A DNA stretch of 64,000 nucleotides, taken from contig CAZHZE010000001.1 of the NCBI GenBank assembly GCA_964537265.1, positions 91,103-155,102 of the forward strand. The letters are read 5' to 3'. Shown piece after piece: positions 11,513-20,824 of the stretch (positions within the stretch are counted from its first letter, which is position 1; each line of letters opens with the position of its first letter). The notes beneath the pieces were generated by a model. That model saw nothing but the letters and a program-made list of their open reading frames with translations. It was not told the DNA's origin and did not search any database. The DNA is from an uncultured Gammaproteobacteria bacterium. GTDB lineage: Bacteria > Patescibacteriota > Patescibacteriia > Patescibacteriales > GWC2-42-12. A program made the position numbers and the translations under genes.

Positions 11513-12679
11513 ATGATATTAACCAACGGATCAACACGCCCGGTCGGTTTAGATATATCAGATTTATCCATAAAATTAATTCAACTAGACAAACGCCGGG
11601 ATAAAATAAAAATTAGAGCTTTGGGCAAAATAGATTTGCCCCAAGGCGTTGTTGTTAATGGAGAAATAAAAAATAATGTCGAAATTATAAAAGCTATTAA
11701 AAAACTTATATCTAACCCGCTTTACGGAAAAATAAATTCTGAAGAAGTTGTAGCCTGCCTGCCTGAATCTAAAACATTTATTAAATTAATCGAGGTGCAA
11801 AAATCGCCAAATCACTTATCGGACATTATTGGTTCAGAGATCGAAAAGCATGTTCCTATGGCGCTTAACGAAATTTACTATGACTGGCAAACTATTAAAG
11901 AGCTGCCTGATAAATATTTAGTATTAATAGGAGCGGCCCCAAAAAATATAGTTAACCAATATACGGAAATGCTGGATGGAGCAAAATTATCAGCAGTAGC
12001 TTTGGAAATAGAGCCGGTAGCTATTTGTCGCTGTTTATTAAAAGAAGAATCTTTAAATTTAAAAAACGCCAAAGCCGAAATTAACAAAAATTATGGGATA
12101 ATCGATATTGGCGCTAATCATACTTGCATGATATTTTATTCAGGCAATTCCATACTTTTCACAGTTAGCATGCCAATATCCGGCGAAGAAATAACAGCTA
12201 AGATTTCTCAAAGTCTTAATTTAACAAAAGAGCAGGCTGAAAAAGCTAAAATTATTTGCGGTTTAGATGAAAAAAAAGCCAACGGAGTAATTAAAGACAT
12301 CTTATCAGATACTTTAAAAAACTTAATGGAAAAAATAAAAGAGGCCATTTCTTTTTATGAAAATTATTTTCCACAAAACGGACCATTAAATCAAATTTTA
12401 TTATGCGGCGGCGGAGCTAATATACCTAATCTAGAAAAAATTATAAGTGAAGAAATTTCAGTTGAAGTAAAATTAGCCGATACTTTAGTTAATCTATCTG
12501 AAGTAAAAAATAAATTAGACGAAATATTCACCGAAAAACATACACTAAATGTCGCCTCAACAAAACTTGAATCCAATAATGACAAAGAGCATGATTTATC
12601 AATTAAACAAAGTTACAGCGCAACTTTTGCTACGGCCTTTGGCTTGGCTTTAAGAGGTATTTTTATAGACGAACTATAA
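11513..12679 (+). CDS. pilM: type IV pilus assembly protein PilM (actin-like ATPase fold)
   Basis: 388 aa. GLDISDLSIKLIQL start and LLCGGGANIPNL are typical of PilM/FtsA-like proteins. Followed by pilN/O-like genes. Confidence 0.85.
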   Translation: MILTNGSTRPVGLDISDLSIKLIQLDKRRDKIKIRALGKIDLPQGVVVNGEIKNNVEIIKAIKKLISNPLYGKINSEEVVACLPESKTFIKLIEVQKSPNHLSDIIGSEIEKHVPMALNEIYYDWQTIKELPDKYLVLIGAAPKNIVNQYTEMLDGAKLSAVALEIEPVAICRCLLKEESLNLKNAKAEINKNYGIIDIGANHTCMIFYSGNSILFTVSMPISGEEITAKISQSLNLTKEQAEKAKIICGLDEKKANGVIKDILSDTLKNLMEKIKEAISFYENYFPQNGPLNQILLCGGGANIPNLEKIISEEISVEVKLADTLVNLSEVKNKLDEIFTEKHTLNVASTKLESNNDKEHDLSIKQSYSATFATAFGLALRGIFIDEL

Positions 12680-12680
12680 T

Positions 12681-13211
12681 ATGATTACTTTAAACCTAAT
12701 TTCCGAGGAATTAAAAAAAGAAATAAAACTACGTCATCTTTATTTATTTATAAAAAAAATAAATTTGGCGCTAATTGTTATTACTATTATTATTGCGATT
12801 ATTCTTTTAGCTGCCAAAACCATATTGCAAGTAAATTTTAATAATATCGTTGAGCAAACTACGCTGGTAACCAAAAATAACCAAGGGTATAACAATAAAA
12901 TAAAAGAAATAAATAGTAAAATAGATTTTATAGAAAAAATACAGAACGATTTCATACCTTGGTCAAATTTATTAGAGATTATAGCTGAGATAACGCCTGG
13001 AGATGTTAATCTATATTATTTAAAAATTAATGAAGACAAATCCATTAAAATTAAAGGCAAGGCTAATTTACGTGATAGCTTATTAAATTTTAAACAAAAG
13101 ATGGAGGCCGCCACAGTCTTTAAAGATATCGATTTTCCTATAAAAAATATTTTAGAAAAAGAAAATATTGATTTTGAAATAAATGCTAAAATAATTGTTG
13201 ATAAGATATAA
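12681..13211 (+). CDS. pilN: PilN-like bitopic pilus alignment protein
   Basis: 176 aa. N-terminal ITLNLISEE (INLLP-like) motif, single TM, position after pilM. Confidence 0.6.
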   Translation: MITLNLISEELKKEIKLRHLYLFIKKINLALIVITIIIAIILLAAKTILQVNFNNIVEQTTLVTKNNQGYNNKIKEINSKIDFIEKIQNDFIPWSNLLEIIAEITPGDVNLYYLKINEDKSIKIKGKANLRDSLLNFKQKMEAATVFKDIDFPIKNILEKENIDFEINAKIIVDKI

Positions 13212-13219
13212 ATTTATCT

Positions 13220-13816
13220 ATGAATGGCATTAAATACTTAAAACTAAATTTAAAAAATAAAATTACCATAACTATGGTTGGTTTTATTATAATAATTTTA
13301 TCTTTAGTTTATTTTATTGTCGCTCCGACAATCAAAGATATAAAAACTATGGGCAATTCGATAGAAGCGCAAAGAGAAGATTTAGAAAAAAAATATATTA
13401 AGGGCCAAAGTTTAAAAAAATTGACTGAAAATTTAAATAAAATAGAGCCTAAACTTGAATTACTAAACCAAATTTTTATTAATAAAAATCGAGAGTTAGA
13501 ATTTATTACTAGTTTAGAAAAAGAAGCAAATAAAAACCAAATAGGTCAAAAAATAAATTTAAGTTCTTTAGAAAAAACAGAAAACCAAAATTTCGGAAAA
13601 ACCAATCTACAACTCTTTACTAAAGGAAATTTTATAAAACAATTGCAATATTTAAAAGATTTAGAACAATTAAACTATTATATAAATATTAATGTTATTG
13701 AATTATCGCCGCTAACTAGCGGGGAACAATTAAAAATGTTTGGTCAAGAATCTCAAGCCGCCGCAGGACAAACTAACCTTAATATGTATATTAGCGCTGA
13801 TACTTATTGGAATTAA
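13220..13816 (+). CDS. PilO-like bitopic coiled-coil protein
   Basis: 198 aa. One TM then a predicted coiled coil. Synteny after pilM-pilN. Confidence 0.45.
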   Translation: MNGIKYLKLNLKNKITITMVGFIIIILSLVYFIVAPTIKDIKTMGNSIEAQREDLEKKYIKGQSLKKLTENLNKIEPKLELLNQIFINKNRELEFITSLEKEANKNQIGQKINLSSLEKTENQNFGKTNLQLFTKGNFIKQLQYLKDLEQLNYYININVIELSPLTSGEQLKMFGQESQAAAGQTNLNMYISADTYWN

Positions 13817-14110: not shown

Positions 14111-14150
14111 AAAAACACCCTTCGCTCTAATCTAGCGAAGGGTGTTTTTT
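14111..14150. terminator. bidirectional rho-independent terminator (pil operon / Fe-S operon convergence)
   Basis: AAAAACACCCTTCGCT ... AGCGAAGGGTGTTTTTT. A perfect stem flanked by an A-run and a T-run. Confidence 0.85.
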
Positions 14151-15342
14151 ATAACGCCGGGGATATATGCCTTAATTTTTTTATTATTGGAGGTAAAATT
14201 TTTAAAACATGCTTTATTTCCGATCTGGTGTTGCCTTTACCGAAAGTAAATCTAATAGTGCTATGTGCGATTTCCTCTTTTATCCCCATAGCTAAAAGCA
14301 CAGATGAGGCTTTTAAACTTTCTGATGCGCAAGCGGAACCAGTAGAAACAGCGATACCTTCTAAATCTAGGGCGATTAAAATTGACTCCCCCTCAGAACC
14401 AACAAACGAAATATTGGCGTGCGCCGGAGTAGCATTTTTAAAATCAGTATTAAAAATAATATTAGGAACTTTTTGCTTAATTAAATAAACAAATTCATCG
14501 CGTAATAAAGAAATTTTTTTATTATTTTTTGCTTGCTCTTTTGCTAATAATCTTATGGCCGCGCCTAAACCAATAATGCCAGGGACATTAAGCGTTCCGC
14601 TTCTTAGATTATTTTCATGGTGACCGCCGAGCTGAATTCCGATGATTGGCGTTCCAGTCTTCACAAATAAAGCGCCAACCCCTTTAGGCCCGTAAATTTT
14701 ATGACCAGACAAAGATAATAAATCAACATGCAAATATTTAATATCGCAATTCAAAAAATTCAAAGCTTGCACTGCGTCAGTATGAAAATAAATTTTATTT
14801 TTATTATTCTGTTTACCCCTTTCTTTATTAATCTTTTCAATAATTTTTCCAATTTCTCTAATAGGCTGGATGCTACCGACTTCGCTATTAACATACATTA
14901 TAGAAACAAAAACCGTATTATCTTTTATAGCTTTTTTAAAAGTCTCTAAATTAACTACGCCATTTTTCTCAACCGGTAAATAAGTAACTTCTACGCCCTG
15001 CTTTTTTAACTTATTAAAAGGTTCTAAAACCGCCGGATGTTCTATGGCTGAAGTAATTATATGCAATTTTTTACCTTTATTTTGCAAAGCGCTTACCACG
15101 CCAAAAATAGCTAAGTTATCAGCTTCGGTAGCGCCAGAAGTAAAAATTATTTCATCGGCTTGGCAATTTAAAAATTTAGCTGTATTTTCTCGTGCTTGCA
15201 TAACAGCTGCTGAAGCTTTTTGTCCAAAGCCATGGAGCGAAGATGGATTGCCAAAATTTTTCGAAAAATAAGGTGATATAGCTTTCAACACGGCCTTATC
15301 AACGGGTGTAGTAGCGCTATGATCTAAATAGATTGGTTTCAT
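14149..15342 (-). CDS. cysteine desulfurase (NifS/IscS class)
   Basis: 397 aa. PLP-lysine motif SLSGHKIYGPKG, catalytic-loop STGSACAS. Confidence 0.9.
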   Translation of the reverse strand: MKPIYLDHSATTPVDKAVLKAISPYFSKNFGNPSSLHGFGQKASAAVMQARENTAKFLNCQADEIIFTSGATEADNLAIFGVVSALQNKGKKLHIITSAIEHPAVLEPFNKLKKQGVEVTYLPVEKNGVVNLETFKKAIKDNTVFVSIMYVNSEVGSIQPIREIGKIIEKINKERGKQNNKNKIYFHTDAVQALNFLNCDIKYLHVDLLSLSGHKIYGPKGVGALFVKTGTPIIGIQLGGHHENNLRSGTLNVPGIIGLGAAIRLLAKEQAKNNKKISLLRDEFVYLIKQKVPNIIFNTDFKNATPAHANISFVGSEGESILIALDLEGIAVSTGSACASESLKASSVLLAMGIKEEIAHSTIRFTFGKGNTRSEIKHVLKILPPIIKKLRHISPAL

Positions 15343-15405
15343 ATAATTATTTATTAGCTAAACGACTCGCCCAAAAAATTAGGCGAGCTTATCCAACCAA
15401 TAAAA

Positions 15406-15549
15406 TTATTTACAGCAACCACAAGTGCATTTTTTTATTTCAACTTTATCGCCAGCCTTTTTCATCGGCTTGCCGCAACAAGTTGGGACTTTATCGCCTT
15501 TAGCTTCAACTATGGCACCACAACCGCATTGGCATATATATTTTAACAT
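15406..15549 (-). CDS. unannotated 47-aa cysteine-rich small protein (9 Cys), desulforedoxin-like motif plus C-terminal CTCGCC tail
   Basis: Below the track's size cut-off. Manual translation: MLKYICQCGCGAIVEAKGDKVPTCCGKPMKKAGDKVEIKKCTCGCCK*. Fills the gap between the Nfu and NifS genes on the same strand. Confidence 0.5.
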   Translation of the reverse strand: MLKYICQCGCGAIVEAKGDKVPTCCGKPMKKAGDKVEIKKCTCGCCK

Positions 15550-15577: not shown

Positions 15578-15838
15578 TTAAATAGCTTTAACTTCTTTAA
15601 CGCCCTTAACCGACTTTTTTATCTCCGCTTCAATACCCTGTTTTAAAGTTAATTGCGACATCGGGCAATGAGCGCAATGACCCATTAATTCCACTTTTAA
15701 AACTCCTGATTTTTTATCAAAATTAACAAAATGTACATCGCCTCCGTCCATTTGTAAGGCCGGTCGTACTTTTTCTAAAATATTTTTTATTTTATCTTCA
15801 ATATTGTCTTTATTATCTTTATTGTTTTTTTTGATCAT
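15578..15838 (-). CDS. Nfu/NifU C-terminal-domain Fe-S carrier protein
   Basis: 86 aa. VRPALQMDGGDVHFV...GHCAHCPMSQLTLK (CxxC Nfu motif). Confidence 0.85.
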   Translation of the reverse strand: MIKKNNKDNKDNIEDKIKNILEKVRPALQMDGGDVHFVNFDKKSGVLKVELMGHCAHCPMSQLTLKQGIEAEIKKSVKGVKEVKAI

Positions 15839-15849
15839 ATTATTTTGTA

Positions 15850-16224
15850 TTATTTCTTAAATTTTATTTTATACTTCTTAATTGCTTGTCTCAAAGCTTC
15901 TATACCCAGCATTGAACAGTGAATTTTAATCTGTGGCAATCCGCCTAAATTTTTAACTATTTCATCTTTTTCAACTTTTAAAGCCTTTTCTAAAGTTTGA
16001 CCTTTAACAATATCAGTTAAAGCCGAAGATACGGCGATAGCCGCAGCGCAACCTAAGGTTTCAAATTTAATATTTGTTATTGCATTATCTTTAATTTTTA
16101 AATAAATTTTCATAACATCGCCACAGGCAGGATTGCCGACCTGGCCGATAGCATCAGCATTTTTAATTTTACCCTGATTATGGGGATTTTTAAAATGCTC
16201 AATTACTTTTTTAGAATATTGCAT
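15850..16224 (-). CDS. IscU/NifU N-terminal-type Fe-S scaffold
   Basis: 124 aa. Three scaffold cysteines in GNPACGD, LGCAAA, HCSML. Confidence 0.88.
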   Translation of the reverse strand: MQYSKKVIEHFKNPHNQGKIKNADAIGQVGNPACGDVMKIYLKIKDNAITNIKFETLGCAAAIAVSSALTDIVKGQTLEKALKVEKDEIVKNLGGLPQIKIHCSMLGIEALRQAIKKYKIKFKK

Positions 16225-16234
16225 ATTTTTATTA

Positions 16235-16975
16235 TTAATATATTTTAACTATCATACCTATTTCCGCCCAATTGTAAATTAATTTAGCCGGTCCGATGCC
16301 TAAACGAATGCAACCATGAGAAACCGGGATACCTAAATGACTTTCTCCTTCACGATAACCGTTAGGCCACACCGGTAATTCATGAATACCAAATTTACCC
16401 TGGCCTAGACCAATCCAATAAGGCATCCATAATCCGTAAGGCGACCAAGCCTTAGGGGCTTTATTTAAAATTTTAAATTCTCCTTTCGGCGTAGGCGTTG
16501 ATGGTTTGCCGGTGGAAACTTTAAAAGTGCCCATTTCTACCCCGGCTAAAAAATAACTTAGTTCCTGATTTTTGATATTAATTTCAATTTGTTTTAATAA
16601 TTTAACGCCTGCTTGAGAATTTAGCGGATCATGACCGCTATTTATCTCTTCTCCATCTTTATAGCCATCTCCATCGGTATCTGGGTTAGTTAAATCTGTC
16701 TTAAATTTTATTTCCTGTTCATCATTTAATCCGTCATGGTCATAATCGTTATTTTTCGTTTTTACTTTTTCTGTATTTAATGCGGAATAACCAGCCGCCA
16801 CTTCAACGCCGTCACTATAGCCATCGCCATCAGTGTCAGGATTTAAAAAATTAGTGTGATAAATATTTATTTCATCTTCATCAAATAGGCCATCTTTATC
16901 GCTATCAATTTTTACATCAGCCAAACAAGGAACAGCTAACAAAAATAAAATGGCTATTAAAGCTATTTTTTTCAT
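16235..16975 (-). CDS. secreted L,D-transpeptidase (YkuD) with thrombospondin-type-3-like Ca-binding repeats
   Basis: 246 aa. Signal peptide, repeated DxDxDG motifs (DTDGDGYSDGVE, DHDGLNDEQE, DTDGDGYKDGEE), catalytic SHGCIRL. Confidence 0.85.
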   Translation of the reverse strand: MKKIALIAILFLLAVPCLADVKIDSDKDGLFDEDEINIYHTNFLNPDTDGDGYSDGVEVAAGYSALNTEKVKTKNNDYDHDGLNDEQEIKFKTDLTNPDTDGDGYKDGEEINSGHDPLNSQAGVKLLKQIEINIKNQELSYFLAGVEMGTFKVSTGKPSTPTPKGEFKILNKAPKAWSPYGLWMPYWIGLGQGKFGIHELPVWPNGYREGESHLGIPVSHGCIRLGIGPAKLIYNWAEIGMIVKIY

Positions 16976-17373
16976 AATAGCTGGCTTAATTTTATATTTT
17001 TTAAAGTTTTTTCAATCGCCTGGTCTACTCTAGATAAAACATAAGTGGCCTGGCAATTGCAAAGTTTACTGCAATAGATTTTGGCGTTTTTGCCAGTACA
17101 ATGAAAACAGTTAAGCTCGCCTTCTAAAGATTTAATAATATCGTAAACATTTATTTTTTTAGAATCTTTAGCTAATAAATAACCGCCCGTAGCTCCTTTT
17201 ACGGATTTTACTAACCCGGCTTTTTTTAAACTAGCAAAAAGCTTTTCTAAATATTTTAAAGAAATATTCTCCTGTTTAGCAATAACCGATAAAGAAACAT
17301 TGCCAAACTTTTGTTGTTTAGCTAAATTTATTATGGCCCTTAAGCCATAAGTTGAACGGGTAGAAAAAATCAT
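16972..17373 (-). CDS. Rrf2-family transcriptional regulator (IscR-like)
   Basis: 133 aa. STRSTYGLRAIINLAK wHTH start, Cys-rich segment CFHCTGKNAKIYCSKLCNC. Its stop overlaps the next ATG (ATGA). Confidence 0.85.
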   Translation of the reverse strand: MIFSTRSTYGLRAIINLAKQQKFGNVSLSVIAKQENISLKYLEKLFASLKKAGLVKSVKGATGGYLLAKDSKKINVYDIIKSLEGELNCFHCTGKNAKIYCSKLCNCQATYVLSRVDQAIEKTLKNIKLSQLL

Positions 17374-17405: not shown

Positions 17406-17433
17406 ATAATATCATACATTCTTTTATTGTCAA
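17406..17433 (-). promoter_or_regulatory. promoter of the Rrf2/Fe-S operon (TTGACA-16 nt-TGATATTAT)
   Basis: Minus-strand TTGACA (17433-17428), 16-nt spacer, extended -10 TGa TATTAT (17411-17406). Confidence 0.45.
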
Positions 17434-17487: not shown

Positions 17488-17534
17488 GAAATAGTGGTTT
17501 TTCGCCACATTTTTATTTATTAAATTATCACAAT

Positions 17535-19529: not shown

Positions 19530-19537
19530 ATTATTAT

Positions 19538-20824
19538 CTATTTTTTATTTAATATTTCTATCGCTTTGTTAATTTGCGGATCTTTATCAGCGTTATAATC
19601 TTCCAGGATTAAATCTATCTGAATATCAGGAGTTATGCCCTGATCATTAATATTATAGCCTTTTGGCGTCAACCATTTAGCTACAGTTATTTTTATAGAT
19701 GAACCATCATCCATATCTTCTAGGGTTTGCACCGATCCTTTGCCAAACGTTTTCATTCCTACTATAGTAGCTTTGCCATAATCCTTTAACGCCCCGGCAA
19801 CAATTTCCGAAGCTGAGGCGCTACCTTGATTAACTAAAACAACTGTTGGAAAATTTTTTAATCTAGCTAAACCTCGATTTTTATACTCGTTCTTTTTTTC
19901 CTGGCTAAATTGCTCTGATACTATGATGCCTTCGTCAATCCATTCACTAGCTACATCAATAGCAGTTTCTAAATATCCTCCTGGGTTATTTCTTAGATCA
20001 AGAATAATACCTTTAGGATTTTTACTAACCGCTTCAGCTACCGCCTGTTTAAACAAATCGCTAGTATCATCATTAAAATTAGTGATGGTAATAATAAATA
20101 TACCATCTTCACTTATTTTTGTTTTAACGCTTTTAACTATAATCATTTCTCTAATTATAGTAATATCTTCAGTTTTCTCAAAACCTTTTCTAAAAATAGT
20201 TAAAGTAACTTTAGTGCCTTTTGGCCCGCGTATTTTATTTACTACTTCATCAATTGTTAAACCAGCCGTTGACTCTCCGTCGACCGCATAAATCTGATCT
20301 CCGGCTTGCAGACCAGCTTTTTCCGCCGGCATACCGGCCAGGGGCGCGACAATAGTTATAATATCATTTTTTTTACCTAATTCAGCGCCGATACCTTCGA
20401 ATGTTCCAGCCAAATCATTAGAAAATTCCTTGGCTATTTTTGGATCCATAAAAATAGTATAAGGATCGCCGGTTGATTCTACTAATCCCTTTAAAGCTCC
20501 ATAAAACATTTTTTTGTCATCTAACTTATCTTTATCAACATATTTTTCTTTCAGCTGATCCCAAACATCCCAAAATAAATTAAAATCAATATCTTTGGTT
20601 AATTTGTTGGCTGGGGCAGTAATATATTTATTATAAACTTGGCCAGCATAAACTGCTTCTTTTAAACTCACGGCTTTCAAAAATTCATTTTTTTGCGATG
20701 ACAACATGCCCGCACCAAAAGCGACTGATAATAAAAATAAATTTAATAAAATAACGCCGGTAATTTTCCAGCGCTTAAATCTCTTAATTTCCGGCGCGCT
20801 TGATGGTAAATTCTGATTATCCAT
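19538..20824 (-). CDS. carboxy-terminal processing protease (S41) with PDZ domain
   Basis: 428 aa. PDZ (AGLQAGDQIYAVDG), RNNPGG, catalytic GSASASEIVAGALKD. Confidence 0.9.
   Translation of the reverse strand: MDNQNLPSSAPEIKRFKRWKITGVILLNLFLLSVAFGAGMLSSQKNEFLKAVSLKEAVYAGQVYNKYITAPANKLTKDIDFNLFWDVWDQLKEKYVDKDKLDDKKMFYGALKGLVESTGDPYTIFMDPKIAKEFSNDLAGTFEGIGAELGKKNDIITIVAPLAGMPAEKAGLQAGDQIYAVDGESTAGLTIDEVVNKIRGPKGTKVTLTIFRKGFEKTEDITIIREMIIVKSVKTKISEDGIFIITITNFNDDTSDLFKQAVAEAVSKNPKGIILDLRNNPGGYLETAIDVASEWIDEGIIVSEQFSQEKKNEYKNRGLARLKNFPTVVLVNQGSASASEIVAGALKDYGKATIVGMKTFGKGSVQTLEDMDDGSSIKITVAKWLTPKGYNINDQGITPDIQIDLILEDYNADKDPQINKAIEILNKK

What the first reader, a model, noticed from the sequence alone, without database searches (positions are those of the whole stretch)
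15406..15549. Unannotated 47-aa, 9-cysteine ORF wedged between the Nfu and NifS genes
The 235-nt gap between the Nfu-like gene and the cysteine desulfurase contains a same-strand ORF: MLKYICQCGCGAIVEAKGDKVPTCCGKPMKKAGDKVEIKKCTCGCCK. The segment Y-x-C-x-C-G-C-G-x-I-V-E ... C-C-G-x-P-M resembles the desulforedoxin / desulfoferrodoxin N-terminal Cys4 iron-binding motif (Y-x-C-x-x-C-G-x-x-V-x-V ... C-C-G-x-x-M) but with altered first-pair spacing. The C-terminus adds a CTCGCC cluster. A 19%-Cys mini-protein in the middle of a minimal Rrf2-IscU-Nfu-NifS operon is a plausible iron donor, electron donor or sulfur relay for cluster assembly. In ISC systems that role is filled by ferredoxin, CyaY or IscX, none of which is encoded here. 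It is too small for routine annotation.
Basis: partly seen in the sequence, partly recalled or inferred. Interest (0 to 1): 0.6.

Follow-up and report, generated by a model that had tools for sequence, protein, structure and literature searches.

The report
Desulforedoxin-like poly-cysteine mini-protein in Fe-S operon
The 47-codon, 9-cysteine ORF is a real, selected gene for a tiny desulforedoxin-like metal-binding protein with a poly-cysteine tail, always found between Nfu and the cysteine desulfurase in some Patescibacteria, which makes it an untested candidate helper (electron or iron donor) for iron-sulfur cluster assembly.

Summary
A 47-aa, 9-Cys ORF lies on the minus strand at 15406-15549, in the 235-nt gap between Nfu and NifS. 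It is a real gene. About 14 distinct homologues exist, all in Patescibacteria metagenome assemblies. Every one with readable context sits between Nfu and NifS. Pairwise dN/dS is 0.03-0.39. The N-terminal 31 residues are a diverged desulforedoxin (Dx) domain. The family profile hits desulfoferrodoxin 1DFX (E 6e-4), hhalign against solved Dx domains gives 94%, and the AlphaFold model's best PDB matches are 1DFX and 1DXG. The curated Pfam and NCBIfam models do not reach threshold, and the first Cys pair is C-x3-C or C-x-C rather than C-x2-C. A charged linker and a terminal C-x-C-C/CCCC cluster follow. The gene is patchy: many sister lineages with the same operon lack it, so it is an accessory. 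Function is inferred only. The most likely role is a small Fe(Cys)4 redox or iron-handling partner of the IscU/Nfu/NifS machinery, which has no ferredoxin in the operon. Rivals are a co-transcribed redox or metal buffer and a Cys-sensing upstream ORF coupled to a conserved hairpin before nifS. Homologues are already called as hypothetical proteins.

The parts
15406..15549 (-). Small CDS: 47 codons plus a TAA stop, encoding a Dx-like poly-Cys mini-protein
   Evidence: ORF listing and sequence. Homologues at 43-96% identity, always between Nfu and NifS. Pairwise dN/dS 0.03-0.39.
15457..15549 (-). Codons 1-31: desulforedoxin-like Cys4 metal-binding domain. Proposed ligands are C6, C10 (or C8), C24 and C25. 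Motif: M-x-K-Y-x-C-x3-C-G ... P-x-C-C-G-K-P-M-K-K.
   Evidence: Family profile against PDB: 1DFX residues 6-37, E 6e-4. hhalign against solved Dx domains: 94.2%, E 1.2e-7. The AF2 model (pLDDT 79) has 1DFX and 1DXG as best Foldseek matches, rmsd 1.6-2.0 A.
15430..15456 (-). Codons 32-40: charged linker (K/D/E-rich), variable in sequence and length
   Evidence: Alignment A9. Per-block pLDDT falls from 81-86 over residues 1-30 to 77 (residues 31-40) and 66 (residues 41-47).
15409..15429 (-). Codons 41-47: C-terminal cysteine cluster (CTCGCCK). The family core is C-x-C-C or CCCC within the last 1-6 residues.
   Evidence: Alignment A9: C43 and C46 are invariant and C45 is in >=90% of members.
15343..15409 (-). 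Stable RNA hairpin filling the 63-nt spacer between the small-ORF stop codon and the NifS start codon
   Evidence: MFE -28.6 kcal/mol, z = -6.45. Same position in 8 of 10 ORF-bearing loci. Consensus of 21 pairs, 6 with compensatory changes. Hairpins also occur in the Nfu-NifS gaps of ORF-less relatives.
15578..15838 (-). Nfu-type Fe-S carrier (NifU C-terminal domain), directly upstream
   Evidence: PF01106, E 1.9e-25.
15850..16224 (-). IscU/NifU-N scaffold
   Evidence: PF01592, E 1.7e-46. TIGR03419, 170.6 bits.
14149..15342 (-). NifS/IscS-type cysteine desulfurase, directly downstream
   Evidence: PF00266, E 8e-76. TIGR03402, E 6e-139.
16235..16975 (-). YkuD L,D-transpeptidase with TSP3 repeats, embedded in the operon. 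Its ATG overlaps the Rrf2 stop as ATGA.
   Evidence: PF03734, E 7e-18. PF18884, E 7e-17. Coordinates.
16972..17373 (-). Rrf2-family (IscR-like) regulator, first gene of the operon
   Evidence: PF02082, E 3.9e-37.
17406..17433 (-). Best sigma-70-like promoter match (TTGACA-16-TATTAT, 11 of 12, TG extended) upstream of Rrf2
   Evidence: Consensus scan only.

Best explanation
Shown: the ORF is a genuine protein-coding gene of a small, lineage-restricted family found in Patescibacteria. The family is co-located with, and presumably co-transcribed with, the IscU-Nfu-NifS Fe-S assembly genes. The protein has three parts:
- a diverged desulforedoxin-type knuckle domain (residues 1-31) offering four Cys ligands: C6, C10 or C8, C24 and C25;
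- a roughly 10-residue charged, flexible linker;
- a terminal C-x-C-C/CCCC cluster.

Inferred: the Dx-like site binds one Fe in a rubredoxin-type Fe(SCys)4 centre. The protein then acts as an accessory redox or iron-handling partner of the assembly machinery. It would deliver the electrons needed to reduce the NifS-derived persulfide (S0 to S2-) on IscU, or to couple [2Fe-2S] units. Ferredoxin does this job in ISC, and the central [2Fe-2S] domain of NifU does it in NIF. Both are missing from this split IscU + Nfu arrangement.

More speculative: the poly-Cys tail on its flexible arm is a second metal, cluster or persulfide hand-off site, possibly shared between two subunits because Dx is a homodimer.

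Many sister lineages lack the gene, so it is a dispensable enhancer rather than a core component.
For: Real gene:
- About 14 distinct homologues exist.
- Pairwise dN/dS is 0.03-0.39.
- Synonymous changes dominate the window-versus-L001 comparison of the ORF: 13.5 of 26.3 synonymous sites changed against 14.5 of 114.7 non-synonymous sites (pS 0.51, pN 0.13).
- The Cys excess has P of about 1e-5.

Dx-like domain:
- hmmsearch of the family profile against PDB gives 1DFX as the only significant hit, E 6e-4, with Cys aligned to Cys.
- hhalign against Dx/Dfx domains gives 94.2%.
- The six best Foldseek PDB matches of the AF2 model are all Dx/Dfx domains.
- Archaeal relatives of the N-terminal domain score E 2.3e-4 on PF06397, and several carry a precomputed PF06397 hit.

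Link to Fe-S assembly:
- Every member with readable context lies between Nfu and NifS. This holds in eight divergent operon versions.
- It holds in operons without YkuD (L102, L103) and in operons with extra MBL or NUDIX genes (L005-L008).
- The operon encodes no ferredoxin, CyaY, IscX or IscA.
- A 2026 review states that the electron donors of minimal MIS/SMS systems are unknown, and that NifU's central domain is thought to supply electrons (PMC13066941).

Redox use of the domain elsewhere: archaeal relatives lie next to flavodiiron protein, ferritin, rubrerythrin and hemerythrin genes.
Against: - There is no biochemical, expression or interaction evidence of any kind.
- The curated Dx models are not reached.
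- The first Cys pair has non-canonical spacing, and either C8 or C10 can be missing. Metal identity (Fe or Zn) and geometry are therefore open.
- The gene is absent from many close relatives whose operon is otherwise the same: L017-L019, L021-L024, L026 and others have 30-165 nt gaps with no ORF. In the NifS tree, ORF-bearing clades are interleaved with ORF-less ones.
- The operon also carries clearly unrelated cargo (YkuD), so guilt by association is weakened.
- Foldseek E-values are weak (0.3-0.4) because the domain is so short.
Confidence: 0.4

Rival explanations
1. General small redox or oxidative-stress electron carrier, the usual context of Dx and rubredoxin. It rides in the Rrf2-regulated operon and serves other partners, not Fe-S assembly itself.
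For: Archaeal relatives of the N-terminal domain lie beside flavodiiron protein, ferritin and rubrerythrin (L014) and hemerythrin (L015). The operon tolerates unrelated cargo such as YkuD, MBL and NUDIX genes. The gene is dispensable in sister lineages.
Against: The position between Nfu and NifS is kept in every one of eight divergent operon variants, including those lacking YkuD. None of the six operon genes is a superoxide reductase, rubrerythrin or flavodiiron protein. The rest of the window was not scanned against Pfam. The poly-Cys tail is specific to the Patescibacteria operon-linked clade.
Confidence: 0.22
2. Metal buffer or metallochaperone (Zn, Cu or Fe), metallothionein-like. The Cys4 knuckle would be a structural Zn ribbon. 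The poly-Cys tail would sequester thiophilic metals that poison IscU, or store and deliver Fe2+.
For: The protein is 19% Cys with a terminal C-x-C-C/CCCC cluster on a flexible arm. Cys4 knuckles of this fold often bind Zn (established knowledge). The non-canonical first-pair spacing could disfavour a Dx-type Fe site.
Against: The closest sequence and structure relatives are Fe-binding Dx domains, not zinc ribbons or metallothioneins. There are no metallothionein Pfam or NCBIfam hits. Only 3-5 tail Cys are present, so capacity is small.
Confidence: 0.18
3. Cys-sensing upstream ORF. The run of Cys codons just before the stop, together with the hairpin that spans from the stop codon to the NifS start, would couple NifS translation to the supply of Cys-tRNA. 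A terminating ribosome would melt the hairpin. A ribosome stalled at the Cys codons would leave the nifS start occluded.
For: The hairpin is stable (-28.6 kcal/mol, z = -6.45). It starts at the stop codon and ends 1-15 nt before the NifS AUG, and six of its pairs show compensatory changes. The tail is conserved in Cys composition rather than exact sequence. No gene in the window has a Shine-Dalgarno sequence, so an unstructured leader may matter for initiation.
Against: The N-terminal 31 residues are conserved as a folded Dx-like domain under purifying selection, which is unlike a leader peptide. L005 and L013 keep the Cys tail but have no hairpin, with 36-nt and 15-nt spacers. Similar hairpins occur in ORF-less relatives. 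This role could coexist with a protein function.
Confidence: 0.1
4. Chance ORF or non-coding spacer, with no protein product.
For: The ORF is very short. There is no Shine-Dalgarno sequence and no Pfam hit. One near-identical contig (L002, coverage 1.5) has TGA at codon 6.
Against: dN/dS is 0.03-0.39 across nine sequences. The frame, the length and 11 invariant residues are conserved down to 43% identity. No gene in this genome has a Shine-Dalgarno sequence. The Cys excess has P of about 1e-5.
Confidence: 0.02

Closest known systems
Desulforedoxin (D. gigas Dx, PDB 1DXG) and the N-terminal centre-I domain of desulfoferrodoxin / 2Fe-superoxide reductase (PDB 1DFX, 2JI1; Pfam PF06397, TIGR00319)
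   Same: Same size (about 30-36 residues). The Y-K-C ... C-G-x-[IV]-V-E ... C-C-G-x-P-M-K signature is shared, including the vicinal Cys pair. Profile-level homology is supported (E 6e-4; hhalign 94%). The predicted fold superposes at 1.6-2.0 A.
   Different: The first Cys pair is C-x3-C (or C-x-C in one member), not C-x2-C. It scores below the Pfam and NCBIfam cut-offs. It has an added charged linker and a C-terminal C-x-C-C/CCCC cluster. It sits in an Fe-S assembly operon, not a sulfate-reducer or oxidative-stress context. It is not fused to a SOR domain.
ISC ferredoxin (Fdx) and the central [2Fe-2S] domain of NifU
   Same: Proposed functional analogy only. Each is a small redox protein or domain encoded with the scaffold and the desulfurase, and supplies electrons for persulfide reduction and cluster coupling (PMC13066941).
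   Different: There is no sequence or fold relationship. A mononuclear Cys4 site is predicted here instead of a [2Fe-2S] cluster. The role is not demonstrated.
Archaeal (Thermoplasmatota) ~60-aa 'CCGKPMK ... HxEHARPM ... CDDGR' proteins
   Same: They have the closest N-terminal domain outside Patescibacteria (46-55% identity over about 30 residues), including the P-x-C-C-G-K-P-M-K motif.
   Different: They have a canonical C-x2-C first pair and a different C-terminal module, with no poly-Cys tail. They are not next to Fe-S assembly genes. They are also uncharacterised.
Dph3/Kti11 (CSL zinc-finger, Fe-Cys4 electron donor to Dph1-Dph2); cited from memory, not tested here
   Same: It is a precedent for a tiny Cys4 Fe protein that acts as a dedicated electron donor to an Fe-S enzyme system.
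   Different: The fold family is unrelated, it is eukaryotic or archaeal, and it has no poly-Cys tail.

Membership tests
Desulforedoxin / Desulfoferrod_N (PF06397, TIGR00319) | Scores above the curated HMM cut-off | tested here: not met
   The window protein has 0 Pfam and 0 NCBIfam hits at E<=10. The best family member scores 12.3 bits on PF06397 against GA 23. dfx_rbo gives E 0.08-0.7.
Desulforedoxin / Desulfoferrod_N (PF06397, TIGR00319) | Detectable homology to solved Dx domains at profile level | tested here: met
   The family profile against PDB gives 1DFX at E 6e-4 as the only hit below 0.4. hhalign against 1DXG/1DFX/2JI1 domains gives 94.2%, E 1.2e-7. Archaeal intermediates score E 2.3e-4 on PF06397.
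Desulforedoxin / Desulfoferrod_N (PF06397, TIGR00319) | Ligand pattern C-x2-C ... C-C (vicinal pair) | tested here: not met
   The vicinal C24-C25 pair is invariant. The first pair is C6-x3-C10 in 12 of 13 members. P0015 has C6-x-C8 with Tyr at position 10. C8 is absent in P0005 and P0046. Four ligands are always available, but the canonical spacing is not kept.
Desulforedoxin / Desulfoferrod_N (PF06397, TIGR00319) | Dx fold (two-knuckle beta-hairpin) | tested here: met
   The AF2 model has pLDDT 79 with strands at 2-5, 13-16 and 30-32. Foldseek PDB ranks 1-6 are all Dx/Dfx domains: 1DXG rmsd 1.6 A over 33 columns, TM(target) 0.64; 1DFX rmsd 2.0 A. E-values are only 0.3-0.4 because of the short length.
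Desulforedoxin / Desulfoferrod_N (PF06397, TIGR00319) | Binds one Fe in a distorted tetrahedral Cys4 site; forms a homodimer | not testable with these tools
   This needs metal analysis, UV-vis and EPR, and size-exclusion or a structure.
Known ISC/NIF accessory proteins (Fdx, CyaY, IscX, IscA, HscAB) | Sequence membership of one of these families | tested here: not met
   No Pfam or NCBIfam hit was found for the small protein.
Known ISC/NIF accessory proteins (Fdx, CyaY, IscX, IscA, HscAB) | Conserved placement inside the scaffold/desulfurase operon | tested here: met
   The gene is always between Nfu and NifS in all loci with context: window, L001-L013, L020, L097-L103.
Amino-acid-sensing leader peptide / attenuator | Run of regulatory codons near the stop plus an RNA structure controlling the downstream gene; peptide otherwise unconstrained | tested here: inconclusive
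   The Cys codon run and a conserved hairpin are present. However, the N-terminal domain is under protein-level selection, the hairpin is missing in L005 and L013, and hairpins also occur without the ORF.
Cys-rich RiPP precursors (e.g. SCIFF/ranthipeptides) | Adjacent radical-SAM or other maturase gene | tested here: not met
   The neighbours are only Rrf2, YkuD, IscU, Nfu, NifS and, in relatives, MBL and NUDIX genes.
Metallothioneins | Membership of a metallothionein family model; Cys-x-Cys/Cys-Cys clusters throughout with no folded core | tested here: not met
   There are no family hits. The N-terminal two thirds are predicted as a Dx-like beta domain. Only the last 4-7 residues are metallothionein-like.

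The most novel reading that the evidence does not exclude
This mini-protein would be the dedicated electron donor, and possibly iron donor, of a ferredoxin-less minimal IscU/Nfu/NifS machinery. A mononuclear Fe(Cys)4 desulforedoxin-type centre with a swinging poly-Cys arm would replace ISC ferredoxin or the central redox domain of NifU. That would be the first Dx-type protein assigned to Fe-S biogenesis, and a concrete answer in these lineages to the open question of what reduces persulfide in minimal systems.
Probability: 0.3. Interest if true: 0.75.

Novelty: new variant of a known kind. Interest (0 to 1): 0.55.

Why it matters
Desulforedoxin has had no clear physiological role outside its fusion in 2Fe-superoxide reductases. 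The electron and iron donors of minimal Fe-S assembly systems are explicitly listed as unknown (PMC13066941). This family is small, easy to express and strictly linked by position to Nfu and NifS, so it gives a directly testable candidate. Its patchy presence among otherwise identical operons is a natural with/without comparison. It also shows that real, selected genes under 50 codons sit in 'intergenic' gaps of Patescibacteria operons and are deposited only as hypothetical proteins, or are mislabelled.

Tried and rejected
- Pfam and NCBIfam scans of the window protein gave nothing at E<=10. Direct membership of Desulfoferrod_N therefore cannot be claimed.
- A single-sequence PDB search gave only chance cytochrome c3 matches at E 0.2.
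- P0003, a 450-aa hit in the exhaustive HMMER search, is a repetitive 'IPTCAGKP' artefact and was discarded.
- The chance-ORF reading is rejected by dN/dS and conservation.
- The RiPP-precursor reading is rejected because no maturase is nearby.
- The missing Shine-Dalgarno sequence is not evidence against translation, because no gene in the window has one.
- The hairpin is not a signature tied to the ORF, because hairpins also occur in ORF-less Nfu-NifS gaps.
- The TGA at codon 6 in L002 was considered as selenocysteine or an alternative code. This is unlikely: the contig has coverage 1.5, and in this window the Rrf2 stop codon is TGA, overlapping the YkuD start as ATGA.
- Literature searches for desulforedoxin together with Fe-S assembly or cysteine desulfurase found no paper that links desulforedoxin to Fe-S cluster assembly.

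Full report
**1. Observation**

The window carries a 47-codon ORF on the minus strand at 15406-15549. It reads MLKYICQCGCGAIVEAKGDKVPTCCGKPMKKAGDKVEIKKCTCGCCK and has 9 Cys. It fills most of the 235-nt gap between an Nfu-type gene (15578-15838) and a NifS-type cysteine desulfurase (14149-15342).

The operon is Rrf2 (16972-17373), YkuD L,D-transpeptidase (16235-16975), IscU (15850-16224), Nfu, the ORF, then NifS. All assignments are confirmed by Pfam and NCBIfam. A strong sigma-70-like promoter match lies upstream of Rrf2.

From the window's composition, a 47-codon open frame has P of about 0.02, and 9 or more Cys has P of about 1.3e-5. The ORF has the highest Cys fraction of all 312 ORFs of at least 30 aa in the window.

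**2. Is it a gene?**

Searches of 5.8 billion clustered proteins and 1.84 billion representatives found only a handful of relatives. A broader profile search raised this to about 14 distinct sequences at 43-96% identity, all 44-50 aa. One of them (P0019) is called as 84 aa from an upstream start and was trimmed to 48 aa for the alignment. Those with named records are Patescibacteria metagenome assemblies.

Every member whose contig gives context lies between Nfu and NifS on the same strand:
- the window clade: L001-L004, L011, L012, L020;
- L010 and L013;
- L005-L007, where a metallo-beta-lactamase-fold gene and a NUDIX gene are inserted between IscU and Nfu;
- L008/L009, which carry the MBL-fold gene;
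- L097-L099 and L100/L101;
- L102/L103, whose operon lacks YkuD.

Nei-Gojobori dN/dS between nine coding sequences is 0.03-0.39, with synonymous sites near saturation. In the window-versus-L001 comparison of the ORF, synonymous changes dominate: pS 0.51 against pN 0.13. None of the 11 window genes inspected, which include L27 and CTP synthase, has a Shine-Dalgarno sequence, so its absence here says nothing. The gene is therefore real and under purifying selection.

It is not truly unannotated. Gene callers have predicted it in several collections, and one homologue is GenBank MFA5359417.1, 'hypothetical protein'. IMG mislabels some members as NagD.

**3. Anatomy**

Alignment of 13 members shows these conserved positions:
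- invariant: M1, K3, Y4, C6, P22, C24, C25, G26, M29, C43, C46;
- nearly invariant: C10, K27, P28, C45.

C8 is Ala in P0005 and Gly in P0046. C10 is Tyr in P0015, which keeps C8. Four ligands are therefore always available: C6, C10 or C8, C24 and C25.

Residues 32-40 form a charged K/D/E-rich linker that varies in sequence and length. The C-terminus always ends in a C-x-C-C or CCCC cluster within the last 1-6 residues.

**4. What the N-terminal domain is**

- Pfam PF06397 and NCBIfam TIGR00319/TIGR00320 give no hits, or only sub-threshold hits at E 0.08-0.7.
- A profile of the family against all PDB sequences gives desulfoferrodoxin 1DFX residues 6-37 as the single significant hit, E 6e-4. C6 aligns to C9, C10 to C12 with a one-residue insertion, and C24/C25 to C28/C29.
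- hhalign against verified Dx/Dfx domain sequences gives 94.2% probability.
- An AlphaFold2 model (pLDDT 79) has 1DFX, 1DXG and four other 2Fe-SOR chains as its top six Foldseek PDB matches, with rmsd 1.6-2.0 A. The E-values are only 0.3-0.4 because the domain is so short.
- Thermoplasmatota proteins sharing P-x-C-C-G-K-P-M-K bridge the two groups. They have a canonical C-x2-C, score E 2.3e-4 on PF06397, and several carry precomputed PF06397 hits. They lie next to flavodiiron protein, ferritin, rubrerythrin or hemerythrin genes and have no Fe-S assembly neighbours.

The window protein is thus a diverged Dx-like domain with altered first-knuckle spacing. It also has a poly-Cys tail that is specific to the Patescibacteria clade.

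**5. Distribution**

A metagenome scan with an Nfu profile returned 80 loci. About 35 of them have Nfu followed by NifS. Only one of these (L020) has the small ORF.

Close relatives with the same Rrf2-YkuD-IscU-Nfu-NifS operon have 30-165 nt gaps with no ORF in any frame. These include L017-L019, L021-L024 and L026, whose NifS is 67-78% identical to the window's.

On a NifS neighbour-joining tree, ORF-bearing loci form three clades interleaved with ORF-less clades. Because the position is identical in all of them, ancestral presence followed by repeated loss is the simpler reading. The gene is accessory.

**6. Mechanism**

Two things are shown: a selected small protein with a Dx-like Cys4 module and a terminal Cys cluster, and strict positional linkage to Nfu and NifS.

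Several steps are inferred.
- The operon encodes a scaffold (IscU), a carrier (Nfu) and a sulfur donor (NifS), but no redox component.
- NifU combines IscU-like, central [2Fe-2S] redox and Nfu-like domains. Here the two outer domains are separate genes and the redox domain is missing.
- A 2026 review notes that the electron donors of minimal systems are unknown.
- A mononuclear Fe(Cys)4 protein is a competent one-electron carrier (established knowledge of rubredoxin and desulforedoxin). An electron-donor role, or an iron-donor role, is therefore the best-supported guess.
- The flexible poly-Cys arm may be a second hand-off site. Resemblance to the C-G-C tail of A-type carriers is a recollection only and was not tested.

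I put about 0.4 on this whole statement. The parts 'real gene' and 'Dx-like metal-binding domain' taken alone I put at about 0.95 and 0.8.

**7. Rivals**

- (a) A general redox or oxidative-stress carrier that is merely co-transcribed.
- (b) A Zn-ribbon or metallothionein-like metal buffer.
- (c) A Cys-sensing upstream ORF. The 63-nt spacer forms a hairpin (-28.6 kcal/mol, z = -6.45) running from the stop codon to just before the NifS AUG. It is present in 8 of 10 ORF-bearing loci, with six compensatory pairs. However, L005 and L013 keep the Cys tail without the hairpin, and similar hairpins occur in ORF-less gaps.
- (d) A chance ORF, which is effectively excluded.

**8. Novelty**

No Pfam or NCBIfam family covers these proteins, and no paper found links desulforedoxin to Fe-S assembly. 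The fold is known. The Cys spacing, the poly-Cys tail and the Fe-S operon context are new. I rate it a new variant of a known kind, of moderate interest. The narrow, patchy distribution and the lack of any functional data limit it.

Noticed in passing
window 15343-15409 (- strand); also L001, L002, L008, L010-L012, L020: A very stable hairpin (-28.6 kcal/mol, z = -6.45) fills the spacer from the small-ORF stop codon to the NifS start. Its position is conserved and six pairs show compensatory changes. Comparable hairpins sit in the Nfu-NifS gaps of relatives without the ORF (L018, L023, L037, L055, L057, L079). It may set NifS expression relative to the scaffold genes, or act as a processing or stability element.
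   Followed up: partly
L002:51-53 (codon 6 of the homologous ORF): A 96%-identical contig (coverage 1.5) has TGA where all others have the Cys6 ligand codon. ENA translated it as Trp. In this window the Rrf2 stop codon is TGA (ATGA overlap at 16972-16975), so TGA is probably a stop in this lineage. The TGA is therefore most likely a sequencing error or a strain-level nonsense mutation. Selenocysteine was not excluded.
   Followed up: partly
window 16235-16975 (-), overlapping the Rrf2 stop at 16972-16975: A secreted-looking YkuD L,D-transpeptidase with TSP3 calcium-binding repeats lies between the Rrf2 regulator and IscU. This arrangement is conserved in many Patescibacteria relatives (L005-L008, L010-L013, L017, L021-L024, L097 and others), which is odd cargo for an Fe-S assembly operon.
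   Followed up: no
L005:6620-7644, L008:9149-9703: Some relatives have a metallo-beta-lactamase-fold gene inserted between IscU and Nfu, and L005-L007 also have a NUDIX gene there. The window lacks both.
   Followed up: no
window, 30 nt upstream of the 11 genes inspected (e.g. 17505-17534, 19530-19559): None of the 11 inspected genes, including L27, CTP synthase and PilM/N, has a recognisable Shine-Dalgarno sequence. Start codons are preceded by A/T-rich tracts (…ATAAT ATG).
   Followed up: partly
L015:5989-6177, L016:1755-1943 and about 100 proteins: A sizeable uncharacterised archaeal family of about 60 aa (Thermoplasmatota and related) has a Dx-like N-terminal C-x2-C...CCGKPMK domain. It also has a conserved C-terminal C-x-QP-x-H-x-EHARPM...(E/D)xCDD(G/F)R motif. 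Only some members carry a Pfam PF06397 hit.
   Followed up: partly
L014:4643-7262: In a Thermoplasmatota MAG, a 49-aa relative has an N-terminal CGCGCG head (poly-Cys at the opposite end of the protein). It sits between a flavodiiron protein and ferritin plus rubrerythrin genes.
   Followed up: no
cluster of P0002 (P0010, P0012): IMG names two members of this mini-protein cluster 'ribonucleotide monophosphatase NagD (HAD superfamily)'. This is an evident annotation error for a 46-aa Cys-rich protein.
   Followed up: no
window 11513-13816 (+) and L008, L100: Type IV pilus assembly genes (PilM, PilN and a PilO-like gene) lie convergently downstream of NifS. This neighbourhood is conserved in divergent relatives.
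   Followed up: no
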